NCBI GenBank assembly: GCA_045645405.1
Contig: JAZRIQ010000044.1
Span: 12,152-76,151, forward strand
Length of the DNA: 64,000 nucleotides
Direction: 5' to 3'
DNA from: Eubacteriales bacterium
GTDB lineage: Bacteria > Bacillota > Clostridia > Oscillospirales > CAG-272
The notes beneath the pieces are model-generated. The model was not told the origin of the DNA, did no database searches, and saw only the letters and a program-made list of their open reading frames with translations. The first letter of the stretch is position 1; each line of letters begins with the position of its first letter. The position numbers and the translations under genes were made by a program. This document shows, one piece after another, positions 8,583 through 60,142 of the stretch.

Positions 8583-8667
8583 CTAATCACGCAAAGCGTG
8601 TATGGAATCAATGCAAAGCGTTGTATGAAATCCGCACGTGGTGCGGTGTGGAATCAACCAAAGATTG
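8583..8667 (+). repeat. Array of four about 22-nt hairpin-plus-linker units
   Basis: Opens with CTAATCACG. The hairpins are CACGC-aaa-GCGTG, CAATGC-aaa-GCGTTG, CCGCAC-gtg-GTGCGG and a weak CAAcc-aaa-gaTTG. Linkers are TATGGAAT, TATGAAAT and TGTGGAAT. Confidence 0.7.
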
Positions 8668-32221: not shown

Positions 32222-32350
32222 GTGACCGGTGGTCAGTGACTAGTGGTCAGTAATTAGATATTTTTTCAAATTCACAAACGCTATGAAAGGATTGTCAGTT
32301 CGTTTTTAGCAGTCGTAGCTATCTACTAGCCACTAACCACTGACCACTGA
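32222..32350 (+). repeat. Complete heptamer-armed palindromic element (copy B)
   Basis: 5' arm GTGACCG GTGGTCA GTGACTA GTGGTCA GTAATTA GAT. A 61-nt core follows. 3' arm ATCTAC TAGCCAC TAACCAC TGACCAC TGA. Confidence 0.85.
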
Positions 32351-45198: not shown

Positions 45199-45230
45199 GT
45201 TTCGCTCCTTTGTGGTTCGCGCCCCTCACA

Positions 45231-45268
45231 GCCGATAGTAGTTAGCCGCCAGCCGTTAGTAAGGTTAG
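45231..45268 (+). repeat. 5'-type heptamer arm (copy D)
   Basis: Reads GCCGATA GTAGTTA GCCGCCA GCCGTTA GTAAGGTTAG. Confidence 0.7.
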
Positions 45269-45340
45269 TTTTTTGATTTATGTAATTATAGCATAGATTT
45301 TGTAACAATTCAATTAAAGCCATATTTTTTTCATTTACTG

Positions 45341-45369
45341 TTTACTTTTTTGGTTTCATGTTATATAAT
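45341..45369 (+). promoter_or_regulatory. Candidate promoter of the collagen-like LRR gene
   Basis: Reads TTTACT, 17 nt, TATAAT. Confidence 0.45.
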
Positions 45370-45401
45370 GAACTCAACAAGTATTTTTTCAAGGAGAGAT
45401 T

Positions 45402-46175
45402 ATGAAAAAATTTTTAGTTTTACTTTTAGTTTTCGTTTTGATGTTTACTCTTGTTTCCTGTATGGGTGAGCAAGGTCCACAGGGCGAAAAGGGAGATAAG
45501 GGAGACCAAGGTATTCAAGGTGAGCAAGGTCTCCAAGGCGTACAGGGTGTACAAGGATCTCAGGGTGTACAAGGCGTTCAAGGTGAGCAAGGTCCACAGG
45601 GTGATAAGGGCGAGGACGGCAGAGGTATTCTAAAGACAGAAGTAATTGACGGTTGCCTTTGGATTACATATACCGACGCACCAAACACTCCAGTAAATGT
45701 AGGAAAGATACTTGAGGAAAGCAGTGACCTTGATTACTATCCTCTTGATGACGGCACATATGCTGTTGCCTGTGGAAATTCCAAGTATTTAAGCACTATT
45801 ATAATACCGGAAAAGCACAATGGAAAACCCGTATCTACCATATTAGAAAACGGTTTTAAGGATTGTCCAAGTCTTAAAAGTATAACGATTCCAAGTAGCG
45901 TTACAAGTATTGGTGACGATGCGTTTTACGGTTGTTCAAGTCTTACAAGCGTTGAAATACCAAGTAGCGTTACAAGTATTGGTCAATATGCGTTTAGTGG
46001 GTGTTCAAGTCTTACAAGCATTGTAATTCCAAATAGCGTTACATCTATTGGTTTCGGTGCGTTTGGATATTGTTCAAGCTTGACTATTTACTGTGAAGCC
46101 ACAAGCAAGCCAAGTGGATGGAATTATAGCTGGAATTATTCTAATCGTCCCGTTCAGTGGGGTTATACTGAATAA
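45402..46175 (+). CDS. Lipoprotein with a collagen-like Gly-X-Y tract and a BspA-type LRR C-terminal domain
   Basis: 257 aa. The signal peptide carries lipobox LVSC. Eighteen uninterrupted GXY triplets (GEQGPQGEKGDKGDQ...GEDGRG) occupy 45465-45626. LRR_5 repeats follow (IPSSVTSIG..AF.GCSSLTS). The C-terminus reads IYCEATSKPSGWNYSWNYSNRPVQWGY. Confidence 0.75.
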   Translation: MKKFLVLLLVFVLMFTLVSCMGEQGPQGEKGDKGDQGIQGEQGLQGVQGVQGSQGVQGVQGEQGPQGDKGEDGRGILKTEVIDGCLWITYTDAPNTPVNVGKILEESSDLDYYPLDDGTYAVACGNSKYLSTIIIPEKHNGKPVSTILENGFKDCPSLKSITIPSSVTSIGDDAFYGCSSLTSVEIPSSVTSIGQYAFSGCSSLTSIVIPNSVTSIGFGAFGYCSSLTIYCEATSKPSGWNYSWNYSNRPVQWGYTE

Positions 46176-46190
46176 TTTTGATTAAAAGCA

Positions 46191-46222
46191 AAACACACTC
46201 TCTTATGAGGGTGTGTTTTCTT
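46191..46222 (+). terminator. Terminator after the collagen-like LRR gene
   Basis: Stem AAACACACTC / GAGgGTGTGTTT, followed by TTCTTTGCTTTT. Confidence 0.55.
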
Positions 46223-46240
46223 TGCTTTTCACGGACAAGC

Positions 46241-46356
46241 CACTAATCACGATGTTGCCGTTGGCAAATGAAGTTGAGCTACGCTCAAATGAAGTTGTCC
46301 TTTCGGACAAATGAAGTCGCTACGCGAATGATGTTGAGGCTACGCCTCAAATGGGA
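46241..46356 (+). repeat. Array of five about 21-nt hairpin-plus-linker units
   Basis: Opens with CACTAATCACG. The hairpins are TTGCC-gtt-GGCAA, TGAGC-tac-GCTCA, TGTCC-tttc-GGACA, CGC-tac-GCG and TGAGGC-tac-GCCTCA. Linkers are ATGAAGT or AATGAAGT (three times), AATGATGT (once), then a terminal AATGGGA. Confidence 0.8.
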
Positions 46357-46445
46357 CACGCACCCCGTTCCCTGTCGCCGTCGTTTCTTCTGGCGGGATG
46401 CCGAGGGCGCCATCCCCTACGGGTTTGTGCGTTTATGTATCCCGC

Positions 46446-46476
46446 TAACTGCTAACTGCTGGCGGCTGACGGCTAA
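46446..46476 (+). repeat. 3'-type heptamer arm (copy E)
   Basis: Reads TAACTGC TAACTGC TGGCGGC TGACGGC TAA. Confidence 0.75.
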
Positions 46477-46480
46477 AATA

Positions 46481-46502
46481 AAAAAGCACCGAAGTGCTTT
46501 TT
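46481..46502 (-). terminator. Terminator of the pyr operon
   Basis: Stem AAAAAGCAC-cgaa-GTGCTTTTT directly after the pyrI stop. A T-run follows on the minus strand. Confidence 0.75.
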
Positions 46503-46919
46503 TTATTTTGCTTTTGTTTCGCAGTATAGGCATCTATACACGCGGTTTTCTCTGTCGGTGAGCTTGAAGATATGTGGAAGCTCCTGCTCACAGGAGGAGA
46601 TACAGCGTGGGTTTTTGCAGGATATAACGTTTTTAAGCATTTCGGGCAAGCTGGCGTGCTTCTTTTCTACGATTTCGCCGTTTTTAATGATGTTTACTGT
46701 AACGTCCGGGTCAATGTAGCCTAAAATATCAAAATTAAGCTCAATGTCAGCATCAATTTTGATTATATCCTTTTTGCCAAGGCGGTTGCTTGGCGCATTT
46801 TTGATAATTGCAATAGGACAATCAAGCTCATCAAGCTTTAAAAGTCCTACGATTTCCATAGCCTTGCCTGCGGTAATATGGTCGATTACAAGACCGTTTT
46901 TGATTGCATCTACTCTCAT
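46503..46919 (-). CDS. pyrI: Aspartate carbamoyltransferase regulatory subunit
   Basis: 138 aa. N-terminus MRVDAIKNGLVIDHI. The C-terminal zinc motif is CKNPRCIS...YRCLYC. Confidence 0.88.
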   Translation of the reverse strand: MRVDAIKNGLVIDHITAGKAMEIVGLLKLDELDCPIAIIKNAPSNRLGKKDIIKIDADIELNFDILGYIDPDVTVNIIKNGEIVEKKHASLPEMLKNVISCKNPRCISSCEQELPHIFKLTDRENRVYRCLYCETKAK

Positions 46920-59942: not shown

Positions 59943-59971
59943 ATTTTAAGCGTGATATACTCTCTACATAA
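59943..59971 (+). promoter_or_regulatory. Promoter upstream of the lysine riboswitch
   Basis: Reads TTGACA, 17 nt, TATACT. Confidence 0.6.
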
Positions 59972-59981
59972 AAATAGAGGT

Positions 59982-60126
59982 TGCGGATATTATGATAAAC
60001 GCAGACAGGGCTAAGGTCTGCGCGGTAAAGGAATGTCCGCCGAAAGTATGCTTTTTCCCAAGGAAGCATATTTGGGGATTGCGAGAATATCGCAATAACT
60101 GTCACCAACACGGTGGAGTGCTATTA
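59982..60126 (+). promoter_or_regulatory. Lysine riboswitch (L-box) aptamer
   Basis: It contains the L-box landmarks in order. These are AUAGAGGUUGCG (5' P1/P2), GUCCGCCGAAAG, UUUGGGG, the AUUGCGA-gaau-AUCGCAAU stem, and AACUGUCACC-aacac-GGUGGAGUGCUAU (3' P1). Confidence 0.8.
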
Positions 60127-60142
60127 AAGGTTATGATTTTTT

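What the first reader, a model, noticed from the sequence alone, without database searches (positions are those of the whole stretch)
46241..46356. Tandem array of five mini-hairpins with covarying stems and a conserved AATGAAGT linker
The array reads CACTAATCACG ATGT [TTGCC gtt GGCAA] ATGAAGT [TGAGC tac GCTCA] AATGAAGT [TGTCC tttc GGACA] AATGAAGT [CGC tac GCG] AATGATGT [TGAGGC tac GCCTCA] AATGGGA. The stem sequences all differ, yet each keeps perfect Watson-Crick pairing. The linker and the 20-22-nt period are conserved. That pattern of conserved structure, variable stem and conserved single-stranded linker is what an array of RNA or DNA protein-binding modules would produce. It is not what simple duplication produces. 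The array lies inside the D/E-bracketed segment, downstream of the LRR gene terminator. The repeated ATGs create a spurious 97-aa ORF (46268-46561).
Basis: seen in the sequence. Interest (0 to 1): 0.62.

Follow-up and report, generated by a model that had tools for sequence, protein, structure and literature searches.

The report
Orphan Gut-1-type hairpin-and-linker repeat array
The five tiny hairpins joined by a constant AATGAAGT linker are real and are one stray copy of a widespread, almost undescribed repeat of uncultured gut Clostridia (a cousin of the orphan Rfam motif Gut-1); the repeat changes very quickly between close relatives and has loops typical of unusually stable single-stranded DNA hairpins.

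Summary
Window 46255-46350 holds five perfect 4-7 bp hairpins separated by (A)ATGAAGT, far beyond chance. It is non-coding and lies in a promoter-less gap between two intrinsic terminators (LRR lipoprotein gene and pyrI).

It is not unique. The only Rfam hit is Gut-1 (24 bits, below the cut-off of 50), which has the same architecture. A scan of species genomes found about 22 arrays with the same linker, all in Oscillospirales MAGs. A model built from other genomes recovers the window's array (E about 1e-4).

Complete copies are two-armed and sit directly upstream of genes for small Avd-like four-helix-bundle proteins (PF05635). The window copy is single-armed and has no such gene nearby.

Relatives with 93-94% identical PyrI carry different arrays (other linkers), or none, at the same spacer. 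A homologous array sits at an unrelated locus in one relative.

Loops are strongly strand-biased. On the ACTTCAT strand, 44 of 46 classifiable loops are C(GNA/GNNA)G, the stable DNA mini-hairpin motif.

Best reading: an orphan copy of a fast-turning-over repeat that is folded and recognised at DNA level. Function is unproven. It is a new variant of a known kind, of moderate interest.

The parts
46236..46254 (+). Leader AAGCCACTAATCACGATGT. It resembles the first 1.7 units of a 3'-type heptamer arm (CCACTAA/CCACTGA). The same CTAATCACG opener precedes the second array at 8583.
   Evidence: CTAATCA occurs only 4 times on the + strand of the window. Three of these sites are at repeat elements (8583, 41387, 46243). 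GCCACTAATCAC matches GCCACTAACCAC of the arm at 32329 in 11 of 12 positions.
46255..46267 (+). Hairpin H1: TTGCC-GTT-GGCAA (5 bp). On the - strand the loop is AAC, the only unit without a G..A loop.
46268..46273 (+). Linker 1 (ATGAAG, with the following T pairing as the first stem base). Exact ATGAAGT at 46268-46274.
46274..46288 (+). Hairpin H2: TTGAGC-TAC-GCTCAA (6 bp). The - strand reads GCGTAGC, which is the GCGNAGC mini-hairpin motif.
   Evidence: The covariance model hit at 46268-46295 scores 27.5 bits, E 1.4e-4.
46289..46294 (+). Linker 2 (exact ATGAAGT at 46289-46295).
46295..46310 (+). Hairpin H3: TTGTCC-TTTC-GGACAA (6 bp). The - strand loop is C(GAAA)G.
   Evidence: The stem is conserved in L111 while the loop differs.
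46311..46316 (+). Linker 3 (exact ATGAAGT at 46311-46317).
46317..46327 (+). Hairpin H4: TCGC-TAC-GCGA (4 bp). The - strand reads GCGTAGC. The unit is identical in L111.
   Evidence: model hit at 46311-46334, 16.1 bits.
46328..46333 (+). Linker 4, the variant ATGATG(T).
46334..46350 (+). Hairpin H5: TTGAGGC-TAC-GCCTCAA (7 bp). The - strand reads GCGTAGC.
   Evidence: L111 has an uncompensated G>A change in this stem.
46351..46356 (+). Degenerate terminal linker AATGGG.
46190..46219 (+). Intrinsic terminator of the LRR/collagen lipoprotein gene (13-bp stem, T-runs on both sides). It bounds the array on the left.
46472..46511 (-). Terminator of pyrI, with A/T runs on both sides, so usable in both directions. 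It bounds the array-containing spacer on the right.
   Evidence: It is conserved downstream of pyrI in all relatives examined.
46357..46443 (.). GC-rich nested stem-loop module (includes GGGATGCC-GAGG-GCGCCATCCCC-TAC) between the array and the heptamer arm. It is a separate repeat type that co-occurs loosely with arrays.
   Evidence: CCCCTAC-type motifs occur at 0.70 per kb within 250 nt of arrays against 0.26 per kb elsewhere, a weak enrichment.
46444..46475 (+). Heptamer arm 'E': GCTAACT GCTAACT GCTGGCG GCTGACG GCT.
   Evidence: The same position in relatives carries other heptamer runs (AGCCGYT or AGTGGTC).
8583..8660 (+). Second, related array in the window. It has the same CTAATCACG opener, linkers GTATGGAATCA / GTATGAAATC / TGTGGAATCA, and 4 small hairpins. 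A homologous array lies downstream of pyrI in relative L123.
   Evidence: It has no Rfam hit.

Best explanation
What it is (confidence about 0.9): a non-coding, single-armed, orphan copy of a dispersed hairpin-and-linker repeat family of gut Oscillospirales. The unit is a constant 7-8-nt linker (here AATGAAGT, or ACTTCATT on the other strand) followed by a perfect 4-7-bp hairpin of essentially free stem sequence. The family is a sibling of the orphan Rfam motif Gut-1, which has GUGAAAU linkers. The copy sits in a transcriptionally insulated, hypervariable spacer between the pyrI terminator and the LRR gene terminator, within the larger pyrI-azlC gap.

How it most likely works (confidence about 0.4-0.45, inferred): the element is made, kept and recognised at the DNA level and not as a dedicated RNA. 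The active form would be the folded single strand or extruded cruciform of the strand that carries ACTTCAT, which is the window's minus strand. There each unit is a C(GNA)G or C(GNNA)G mini-hairpin, and the constant linker is displayed single-stranded between hairpins. A trans-acting factor would read linker plus loop while ignoring stem sequence. The best candidate is the small Avd-like four-helix-bundle protein (PF05635), whose genes carry complete two-armed copies directly upstream. Orphan copies such as this one would be dispersed or left-behind non-autonomous copies. They gain, lose and exchange whole units quickly and have no demonstrable effect on the neighbouring genes.

Shown: the architecture, family membership, genomic distribution, turnover, loop and strand bias, adjacency to PF05635 genes in other genomes, and the absence of a promoter or ORF.

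Inferred: DNA-level folding, recognition by the PF05635 protein, and the mode of spread.

The single confidence value given for this explanation (0.45) refers to the mechanism, not to the identity.
For: Architecture and significance.

Kinship with Gut-1:
- Gut-1 is the only Rfam hit with E below 0.05, and its consensus has the same hairpin-linker-hairpin layout.
- Every sampled same-linker array scores 26-40 bits on Gut-1.

Family membership:
- About 22 of 120 genome hits to ATGAAGT x3 are variable-stem hairpin arrays. All are in Clostridia/Oscillospirales MAGs.
- Covariance model R1, built from 11 units of other genomes, ranks the window array first (27.5 bits, E 1.4e-4). Nothing else in the 64 kb is significant.

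Strand-specific loops, from 73 distinct units read on the ACTTCAT strand:
- GNA 24 and GNNA 20, against TNC 2 and TNNC 0 (p = 3e-11).
- All 44 are closed by 5'C:G3'.
- The exact motifs GCGNAGC/GCGNNAGC occur 19 times against 0 on the other strand.
- In the window, 4 of 5 units fit.

Literature on the loops: these motifs form extraordinarily stable DNA mini-hairpins, and their RNA versions are much less stable (PMC13037366). Triloops are as common here as tetraloops. G:T and A:C stem mismatches show no strand bias (4 against 3).

Not an evident transcription unit:
- There is no promoter-like site at 46220-46480 on either strand, and terminators lie on both sides.
- In PF05635 loci L144 and L145 a -10 element lies between the array and the gene.
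- Metatranscriptome contigs on L030 cover the PF05635 ORF but not the bulk of the array (weak evidence).

Turnover and mobility (unless noted):
- At the orthologous pyrI-azlC spacer, relatives with 93-94% identical PyrI differ. L132 and L123 have ATATCGC-linker arrays, L125 has a TATTTCA-linker array, L123 also has an 8583-type array, and L121 and L126 have none.
- L123 and L132 share the end units of the ATATCGC array but differ in the middle ones.
- The window array is 86% identical over 86 nt to an array next to a serpin gene in L111. L111 comes from the same MAG as L121, which has no array at pyrI.

Link to PF05635:
- Arrays lie upstream of PF05635 genes in L029 and L030.
- They also lie upstream in 3 of 3 sampled PF05635 clusters.

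Mechanistic precedent: retrohoming by diversity-generating retroelements (DGRs), whose accessory protein Avd is the homologue of PF05635 proteins, needs a DNA hairpin/cruciform. Its GC-rich stem is free in sequence, but its loop is a conserved, strand-specific 5'-GRNA (PMC3240598).
Against: - No experiment or read data bear on this copy. No public run holds the window's strain.
- The window has no PF05635 gene. Only 2 of about 24 same-linker array loci have one within the locus fetched (up to 8 kb), so most copies are orphans and any dependence on that protein must be in trans.
- The three PF05635 clusters sampled were chosen by similarity to one already known to have an array, so the 3-of-3 result is biased.
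- GNRA-type loops closed by C:G are also classical RNA features. As RNA, the minus strand of the array folds better than shuffles (z -2.5), so an RNA role for the minus strand is not excluded.
- In L134 the array ends 24 nt before the PF05635 start codon and must be in that mRNA.
- The mini-hairpin strand shows no consistent orientation relative to GC skew or coding strand: the mini-hairpin strand has positive GC skew in 4 of 12 single-armed arrays. A replication-linked ssDNA role is therefore not supported.
- The second array type in the window (8583) does not show G..A loops on the predicted strand.
Confidence: 0.45

Rival explanations
1. RNA-level element. The array is transcribed, either by read-through from the pyr operon on the minus strand or from an unrecognised promoter, and works as RNA. 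It could be a Gut-1-like small RNA, a sponge or scaffold that presents the repeated single-stranded linker to an RNA-binding protein (CsrB/RsmZ logic), or a stack of hairpins that protects 3' ends from exonucleases.
For: - Rfam files the sibling motif Gut-1 as a candidate sRNA (PMC2864571).
- C(GNRA)G loops are typical of RNA.
- The minus-strand RNA fold is better than shuffles (z -2.5, 1 of 200).
- The minus strand is the sense strand of pyrBI.
- In L134 and L030 the array abuts the ribosome-binding site of the PF05635 gene and must be part of its mRNA. One metatranscriptome contig reaches 66 nt into the array.
Against: - There is no promoter-like site near the array, and a terminator lies upstream of it on each strand.
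- The plus-strand RNA fold is not better than shuffles (z -1.2).
- The linker, the supposed protein-binding word, differs between close relatives at the same spacer (ATATCGC, TATTTCA, ACTTCAT). This is hard to square with one conserved RNA-binding partner.
- Triloops of the GNA type closed by C:G are as frequent as tetraloops and match the DNA mini-hairpin motif, whose RNA version is much less stable (PMC13037366).
- G:U tolerance shows no strand bias.
- If the element is RNA, the loop bias puts the functional strand opposite to the one Rfam models for Gut-1.
Confidence: 0.25
2. Self-generated neutral repeat with no dedicated factor. Arrays arise and turn over in terminator-flanked, selection-free spacers by replication slippage of linker-plus-hairpin units. 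Intramolecular template switching (quasi-palindrome correction) keeps each stem perfectly paired. The G..A loop bias would then reflect which hairpins are stable enough to promote such events.
For: - Change is unit-wise. It includes a symmetric 2-bp stem shortening (H2 in the window against TTGC-TAC-GCAA in L111), loop-only changes, and the shift of H1 from the first position in the window to the last in L111 (circular permutation).
- Stems are perfectly Watson-Crick, with very few mismatches and no strand bias among those present.
- Arrays lie in non-transcribed gaps.
- Most copies are far from any PF05635 gene.
- Arrays sit side by side with heptamer microsatellite-like arms.
Against: - Slippage does not explain the same linker family appearing at unrelated loci and in many genera.
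- It does not explain the regular placement of complete two-armed copies directly upstream of PF05635 genes.
- It does not explain why linkers stay identical while stems are saturated with change.
Confidence: 0.2
3. Chance pattern, ordinary tandem duplication, a small protein-coding gene (the 97-aa ORF), or a degenerate CRISPR array.
For: An ATG-started 97-aa ORF exists. The layout of a repeat alternating with a variable segment superficially recalls CRISPR.
Against: - Chance is excluded.
- Unit lengths of 21, 22, 17 and 22 nt break any reading frame. The ORF has no Pfam match and is not conserved in L111.
- The variable segments are 11-17-nt perfect palindromes and the constant part is only 7-8 nt, so CRISPR dimensions are not met.
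- The units are not copies of one another.
Confidence: 0.02

Closest known systems
Gut-1 RNA motif (Rfam RF01706; Weinberg et al. 2010, PMC2864571)
   Same: Both are tandem small GC-rich hairpins of variable stem sequence separated by a constant A/U-rich linker (GUGAAAU against AAUGAAGU). Both are confined to uncultured gut bacteria and have no known function. Gut-1 is the only Rfam family hit (24.2 bits here; 26-40 bits for other same-linker arrays). The loop polarity relative to the linker is the same: UUC/UUGC on the modelled strand, which is GAA/GCAA on the opposite strand.
   Different: The score is below Rfam's gathering threshold of 50 bits. The linker word differs, there are five units instead of three, and unit lengths differ. 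Gut-1 is curated as a stand-alone sRNA, whereas this copy has no promoter and lies between terminators. The loop bias suggests the relevant strand is opposite to the one Rfam models.
REP/BIME (REPIN) elements with RAYT transposases of Enterobacteria and Pseudomonas
   Same: Both are extragenic, terminator-proximal clusters of short palindromes with conserved inter-palindrome linkers. Both are dispersed in many copies, are variable between strains, and are thought to be recognised as folded single-stranded DNA by a trans-acting protein.
   Different: REP palindromes are conserved in sequence within a genome and carry a GTAG-type cleavage word. Here the palindromes are free in sequence and only the linker and loop class are constant. 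No RAYT/Y1 gene was seen in the window. The associated gene in complete copies is a PF05635 four-helix-bundle protein, not a transposase.
Hairpin/cruciform target element of diversity-generating retroelements (Guo et al. 2011, PMC3240598), with the accessory protein Avd
   Same: Both have a DNA hairpin whose GC-rich stem is free in sequence while the loop is conserved and strand-specific (5'-GRNA there; C(GNA/GNNA)G here). In both, the element is associated with an Avd-family protein.
   Different: DGRs have a single 7-10-bp hairpin next to a variable repeat, plus a reverse transcriptase and a template repeat. Here there are arrays of 4-7-bp hairpins with linkers, mostly triloops, and no RT/TR/VR was seen near the arrays examined.
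Mini-hairpin DNA d(GCGNAGC)/d(GCGNNAGC) (Hirao and co-workers; review PMC13037366)
   Same: Three of the five window units (minus strand GCGTAGC) and 19 of 73 family units contain the exact motif. All 44 G..A loops are closed by C:G. Such hairpins mark single-strand initiation sites and the single-stranded promoters of phage N4.
   Different: Those are single functional hairpins in phage or plasmid origins and promoters. No arrays with constant linkers have been described, and no replication-orientation rule was found here.
Cyanobacterial STRR and other heptamer tandem repeats, and the heptamer-armed repeats of this same genome
   Same: The linker is a heptamer. Pure (ATGAAGT)n tandem repeats exist in cyanobacteria and Bacteroidota. 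In this lineage the arrays are physically fused to heptamer arms (leader CCACTAATCACG).
   Different: Here a hairpin of variable sequence is intercalated between successive heptamers. No heptamer-only run of ATGAAGT occurs in the window.

Membership tests
Rfam Gut-1 (RF01706) | Covariance-model score at or above the curated gathering threshold (50 bits) | tested here: not met
   24.2 bits, E 0.01-0.036, at 46286-46357 on the + strand. No hit at the gathering threshold.
Rfam Gut-1 (RF01706) | Three consecutive hairpins separated by a conserved GUGAAAU-type single-stranded linker | tested here: inconclusive
   The layout is the same and model positions 1-77 align end to end. However, the linker is AAUGAAGU and one hairpin aligns with gaps.
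Rfam Gut-1 (RF01706) | Expressed as a non-coding RNA on the modelled strand | not testable with these tools
   No run holds this strain. No promoter-like site lies near the array. The loop bias points to the opposite strand.
ATGAAGT-linker hairpin arrays of Oscillospirales (family defined here) | At least 3 units of ATGAAGT-like linker plus a perfect 4-7-bp hairpin of differing sequence | tested here: met
   Five hairpins, three exact linkers and one 1-mismatch linker.
ATGAAGT-linker hairpin arrays of Oscillospirales (family defined here) | Recognised by a covariance model built only from other genomes' units | tested here: met
   R1 scores 27.5 bits (E 1.4e-4) and 16.1 bits (E 0.08) on the array. 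The next hit in the window is 12 bits.
ATGAAGT-linker hairpin arrays of Oscillospirales (family defined here) | C(GNA) or C(GNNA)G loops on the strand where the linker reads ACTTCAT | tested here: met
   On the minus strand of the window the loops are GTA, GTA, GAAA, GTA and AAC, so 4 of 5 units fit. The family count is 44 against 2.
ATGAAGT-linker hairpin arrays of Oscillospirales (family defined here) | Complete form: two inverted arms directly upstream of a PF05635 gene | tested here: not met
   The window copy has a single arm. The window has no PF05635 gene by tblastn or by a family HMM. It is therefore an orphan copy.
REP/BIME-RAYT | Palindrome sequence conserved among copies, with a conserved 5' GTAG-type word | tested here: not met
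   Stems differ between units and between copies, and no GTAG word is present.
REP/BIME-RAYT | A RAYT (Y1/HUH) gene in the genome | not testable with these tools
CRISPR array | Repeats of 23-55 nt alternating with unique non-palindromic spacers of similar length; cas genes nearby | tested here: not met
   The constant part is 7-8 nt and the variable parts are 11-17-nt perfect palindromes. The flanking genes are an LRR lipoprotein gene, pyrI, azlC and azlD.
DGR target hairpin | A single 7-10-bp GC-rich stem with a 4-nt GRNA loop next to a variable repeat, with RT and template repeat nearby | tested here: not met
   The stems are 4-7 bp, only one unit has a GAAA loop, and the units are arrayed. 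No RT, TR or VR was seen among the neighbours examined. The resemblance is one of logic only.

The most novel reading that the evidence does not exclude
Hairpin-and-linker arrays (Gut-1 included) and the stand-alone Avd-like PF05635 proteins may form an unrecognised two-component system that works on folded DNA. On this reading, the pentameric four-helix-bundle protein reads a clade-specific 7-nt linker displayed between C(GNA/GNNA)G mini-hairpins while ignoring stem sequence. This echoes the way DGR machinery, which includes the homologous protein Avd, depends on a GRNA-loop hairpin with a free stem. The recognition would drive the addition, loss and relocation of whole units, making intergenic spacers such as pyrI-azlC hypervariable. 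Orphan arrays like this one would be its footprints.
Probability: 0.2. Interest if true: 0.8.

Novelty: new variant of a known kind. Interest (0 to 1): 0.58.

Why it matters
Gut-1 has been an orphan motif since 2010, and PF05635 ('23S rRNA intervening-sequence protein', Avd-like) is a very large protein family with no known role outside DGRs. This finding adds three testable handles.

1. The arrays form a broad, architecture-defined family whose linker changes between close relatives. Sequence-based catalogues therefore see only fragments of it.
2. The loops are strongly strand-specific and match the DNA mini-hairpin motif. This identifies the strand to test and argues for probing DNA as well as RNA. 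It also questions the strand that Rfam models for Gut-1.
3. Whole units turn over at a fixed chromosomal spacer among genomes with 93-94% identical PyrI, which makes it a natural system for studying how such repeats are made.

There is also a practical point. These arrays generate spurious ORFs and may break assemblies.

Tried and rejected
The copy number in this genome and the presence of PF05635 or RAYT genes elsewhere in it are unknown.
- RNA evidence for this copy: no RNA or DNA run holds the strain. The best share of sampled words was 0.12, and those runs hold relatives in which the array region is not matched.
- Exact-word searches for the window's own array subfamily in JGI metagenomes gave 0 hits twice.
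- The same ATGAAGT x3 pattern in viral contigs gave 118 loci, none a variable-stem hairpin array. There is no sign of a phage origin.
- Replication or coding orientation rule for the mini-hairpin strand: none found. The mini-hairpin strand has positive GC skew in 4 of 12 cases. In this window the mini-hairpin strand is the G-rich, mostly coding strand.
- G:T against A:C mismatch asymmetry as an RNA test: 4 against 3, uninformative.
- Association of the GC-rich 'CCCCTAC' module with arrays: only a 2.7-fold enrichment on small numbers. Not pursued.
- PF05635 genes next to pure (ATGAAGT)n heptamer repeats of other phyla: none detected with a Clostridia-derived HMM, which is probably too narrow.
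- Coding, CRISPR and chance readings were rejected (see the rival explanations).
- The exact PyrI sequence of the window is not in the protein collection. Orthologous loci were therefore reached through 91-94% identical homologues.
Full report
**1. Observation**

Folding the stretch as DNA or as RNA, on either strand, gives the same five local hairpins:
- H1 46255-46267: TTGCC-GTT-GGCAA
- H2 46274-46288: TTGAGC-TAC-GCTCAA
- H3 46295-46310: TTGTCC-TTTC-GGACAA
- H4 46317-46327: TCGC-TAC-GCGA
- H5 46334-46350: TTGAGGC-TAC-GCCTCAA

The hairpins are separated by ATGAAG(T) three times and ATGATG(T) once. Start-to-start linker spacing is 21, 22, 17 and 22 nt.

The pattern is beyond chance:
- TRF calls a period-21 array.
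- The linker pattern occurs 3 times against 0.01 expected.
- A generic detector of 'repeated 7-mer with different perfect hairpins in between' finds only this site in 64 kb and nothing in 50 shuffles.
- As DNA the array folds with z = -3.8 and -4.0 on the two strands. As RNA it folds with z = -1.2 (+) and -2.5 (-).

The 97-aa ORF has no Pfam match. It is broken by the non-triplet unit lengths and is not conserved in the homologous array of a relative.

**2. Setting**

The array lies between convergent genes:
- A collagen-like/LRR_5 lipoprotein gene (45402-46175, + strand), with its terminator at 46190-46219.
- pyrI (46919-46503, - strand), with its terminator at 46472-46511.

Further left are the divergent promoters of the LRR gene and of azlC-azlD. 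No promoter-like site lies between 46220 and 46480 on either strand. Both flanking terminators have T-runs in both directions.

The array is therefore in a transcriptionally insulated gap. It shares the gap with a GC-rich stem-loop module (46357-46443) and a heptamer arm (46444-46475).

The array opens with GCCACTAATCACG. This resembles the start of the 3'-type heptamer arms elsewhere in the window. The same CTAATCACG opener precedes a second, related array at 8583-8660.

**3. Known families**

At Rfam's gathering thresholds only a lysine riboswitch elsewhere in the window is found. In E-value mode the best hit on the array is Gut-1 (RF01706): 24.2 bits against a threshold of 50, E 0.01-0.04, aligned over model positions 1-77.

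The Gut-1 consensus is three hairpins separated by GUGAAAU, so the architecture is the same. Gut-1 was reported in 2010 as a candidate non-coding RNA seen only in human gut metagenomes (PMC2864571). I found no later functional work on it.

**4. The family**

I scanned one genome per species for ATGAAGT-N(10-17)-ATGAAGT-N(10-17)-ATGAAGT.

About 22 of the 120 are arrays of different perfect hairpins. All of these are from Clostridia/Oscillospirales MAGs (Acutalibacteraceae, Ruminococcaceae, Oscillospiraceae, Ca. Fimenecus). The remainder are pure heptamer repeats of cyanobacteria and Bacteroidota, or coding repeats.

Other features of the family:
- Many arrays are two-armed: [ATGAAGT + hairpin]n - core - [hairpin + ACTTCAT]n.
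- They fill intergenic gaps right up to stop codons, terminators or ribosome-binding sites.
- All sampled members score 26-40 bits on Gut-1, and none reaches 50.

Covariance model R1 was built from 11 units of other genomes, excluding the window and L111. It finds the window's array as its top hits (27.5 bits, E 1.4e-4; 16.1 bits). Nothing else in the 64 kb is significant.

The same pattern in viral contigs gave no hairpin arrays among 118 loci.

**5. Turnover and mobility**

PyrI homologues of 91-94% identity led to orthologous loci. The terminator after pyrI and the azlC promoter are conserved, but the DNA between them differs in every lineage:

| Locus | Content between the pyrI terminator and the next gene |
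|---|---|
| L132 | (AGTGGTC)4, an array with ATATCGC linkers, then heptamers |
| L123 | AGCCGYT heptamers, an 8583-type array (opener ATAATCACG, linkers GTATGTAATCA), then an ATATCGC array |
| L125 | An array with TATTTCA linkers, followed by a merR-type gene |
| L126 | No array; AbiEii genes |
| L121 | No array; a convergent gene 24 nt after pyrI |

L123 and L132 share the first and last ATATCGC units but differ in the middle ones.

L121 comes from the same MAG as L111. L111 carries an array 86% identical over 86 nt to the window's H2-H5, but next to a serpin gene and with unrelated flanks. The differences between the two arrays are:
- a symmetric 2-bp shortening of H2
- a loop change in H3
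- an uncompensated G>A in H5
- an H1-like unit placed after H5 instead of before H2. This is either a circular permutation or differential loss from a longer array.

Likewise, the 8583-type array sits in the fucosamine gene cluster in the window but after pyrI in L123.

So arrays change by whole units and occur at non-homologous sites in close relatives. The different stems within an array are therefore not classical covariation evidence.

**6. Loop and strand bias**

From 73 distinct units of 27 sources, read on the strand where the linker is ACTTCAT:
- Loops are GNA (24) or GNNA (20), against TNC (2) and TNNC (0); p = 3e-11.
- All 44 are closed by 5'C:G3'.
- The exact words GCGNAGC/GCGNNAGC occur in 19 units and never on the other strand.

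In the window this is the minus strand, with loops GTA, GTA, GAAA, GTA and AAC, and three GCGTAGC words. The Gut-1 consensus has the same polarity: UUGC, UUC and UUC on the modelled strand.

d(GCGNAGC) and d(GCGNNAGC) are the 'extraordinarily stable mini-hairpin DNA' motifs. Their RNA counterparts are much less stable, and they occur at single-strand initiation sites and at the single-stranded promoters of phage N4 (PMC13037366).

Stem mismatches show no G:T against A:C strand bias (4 against 3). I found no rule linking the mini-hairpin strand to GC skew or coding strand.

**7. Link to PF05635**

Earlier notes of this scan suggested that complete arrays precede genes for small Avd-like four-helix-bundle proteins. 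I re-tested this.
- Two of the pattern-derived loci carry a PF05635 gene just downstream of the array. L030 has two tandem two-armed modules ending 20 nt before the start codon. L029 has a frameshifted copy.
- Homologues of the L030 protein are all PF05635. All three clusters I looked up (P0127, P0171, P0186) have a two-armed RTGAAGY/ACTTCAY array directly upstream. It usually follows a tRNA gene and its terminator.
- In L144 and L145 a TGnTATAAT -10 element lies between the array and the gene. In L134 there is no room for one.
- Metatranscriptome contigs cover the L030 ORF from about its start codon. One contig reaches 66 nt into the array and none covers the rest. This is weak evidence, since contigs break at repeats.

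The window itself has no PF05635 gene. Only 2 of about 24 array loci have one within the locus fetched (up to 8 kb), so most arrays, including this one, are orphans.

The literature search found no description of this association. It did turn up a mechanistic parallel. DGR retrohoming requires a DNA hairpin/cruciform whose GC stem is free in sequence but whose loop is a conserved, strand-specific 5'-GRNA, and DGRs use the PF05635 homologue Avd (PMC3240598).

**8. Interpretation**

With high confidence, the finding is an orphan, single-armed member of a hairpin-and-linker repeat family related to Gut-1.

For mechanism I favour a DNA-level element, at about 0.4-0.45. On this reading it is folded as single-stranded or cruciform DNA on the ACTTCAT strand. 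A trans factor, most plausibly a PF05635 protein, would read the linker plus the G..A loop. The grounds are:
- the insulated, promoter-less position
- the DNA-type mini-hairpin signature, with as many triloops as tetraloops
- the lack of any G:U strand bias
- the change of linker word between close relatives
- the unit-wise turnover and relocation

The rivals:
- An RNA role (about 0.25) remains open. C(GNRA)G loops and the better minus-strand RNA fold fit it, and some arrays must lie in PF05635 mRNAs.
- A factor-free origin by slippage plus palindrome correction (about 0.2) explains the turnover. It does not explain the spread of one linker family over many loci and genera, or the regular position before PF05635 genes.

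**9. Limits**

- No sequencing run holds this strain.
- The PF05635 clusters sampled were chosen by similarity to an array-linked gene.
- No experiment bears on function.

Noticed in passing
window 59967-60131 (+): A lysine riboswitch aptamer (RF00168, 87.5 bits). It is the only Rfam family above its gathering threshold in the window.
   Followed up: no
window 45199-46502, compared with L121, L123, L125, L126, L132: The gap between the pyrI terminator and the next gene is a hotspot of variation. Close relatives hold there, in turn, only repeats (L123, L132), a merR-type gene set (L125), an AbiEii pair (L126-L131), a 710-aa convergent gene (L121), or, in the window, a collagen-like LRR lipoprotein gene plus repeats.
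   Followed up: partly
Rfam RF01706 consensus as printed: On the strand Rfam models, Gut-1 has UUGC/UUC loops. The opposite strand would carry C(GCAA)G and C(GAA)G loops, as in the family studied here. If the motif acts as a folded single strand, the curated orientation may be the wrong one.
   Followed up: partly
L033 119-258 and L077 571-693: Two arrays have the arms in the opposite mutual order: the ACTTCAT arm comes first, then the ATGAAGT arm. Both lie directly next to a tRNA gene.
   Followed up: no
L013 2866-3007 and L115 6807-6929 (same MAG, Ca. Fimenecus): Nearly identical two-armed arrays with identical flanking cores occur on two contigs of one genome. Whole composite elements are therefore duplicated or dispersed within a genome.
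   Followed up: no
L017, L040, L073 (Nostoc), L001/L011/L022 (Bacteroidales), L055, L089, L095, L100, L116: Pure tandem heptamer repeats (ATGAAGT)n, with the same 7-mer as the linker, are common in cyanobacteria and Bacteroidota. A narrow PF05635 HMM found no such gene beside them.
   Followed up: partly
window 46395-46420, and L004, L013, L046, L067, L115 near their arrays: A GC-rich hairpin ending in CCCCTAC recurs near arrays (0.70 per kb within 250 nt against 0.26 per kb elsewhere). It may be a third repeat module of the same spacers.
   Followed up: partly
L029 2049-2400: The PF05635 gene downstream of the array is interrupted after 72 codons. This is a frameshift or an assembly error, and the reading resumes in another frame.
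   Followed up: no
L121 1575-2489: In the relative MAG GCA_045533435.1, pyrB is called as two ORFs (77 + 207 aa) instead of one of 304 aa. This is probably a frameshift or an assembly error.
   Followed up: no
L145-L154 (genes at 901-1254 and 1251-1697 of L145): One PF05635 gene overlaps the start of a HIT-family hydrolase gene by 4 nt, which suggests translational coupling. The DNA upstream of the array differs between contigs (TetR gene against tRNA gene).
   Followed up: no
L132 4343-4423: A further hairpin array with CATATCG linkers lies downstream of azlD in the same relative. It has the same linker family as the array after pyrI in that genome.
   Followed up: no
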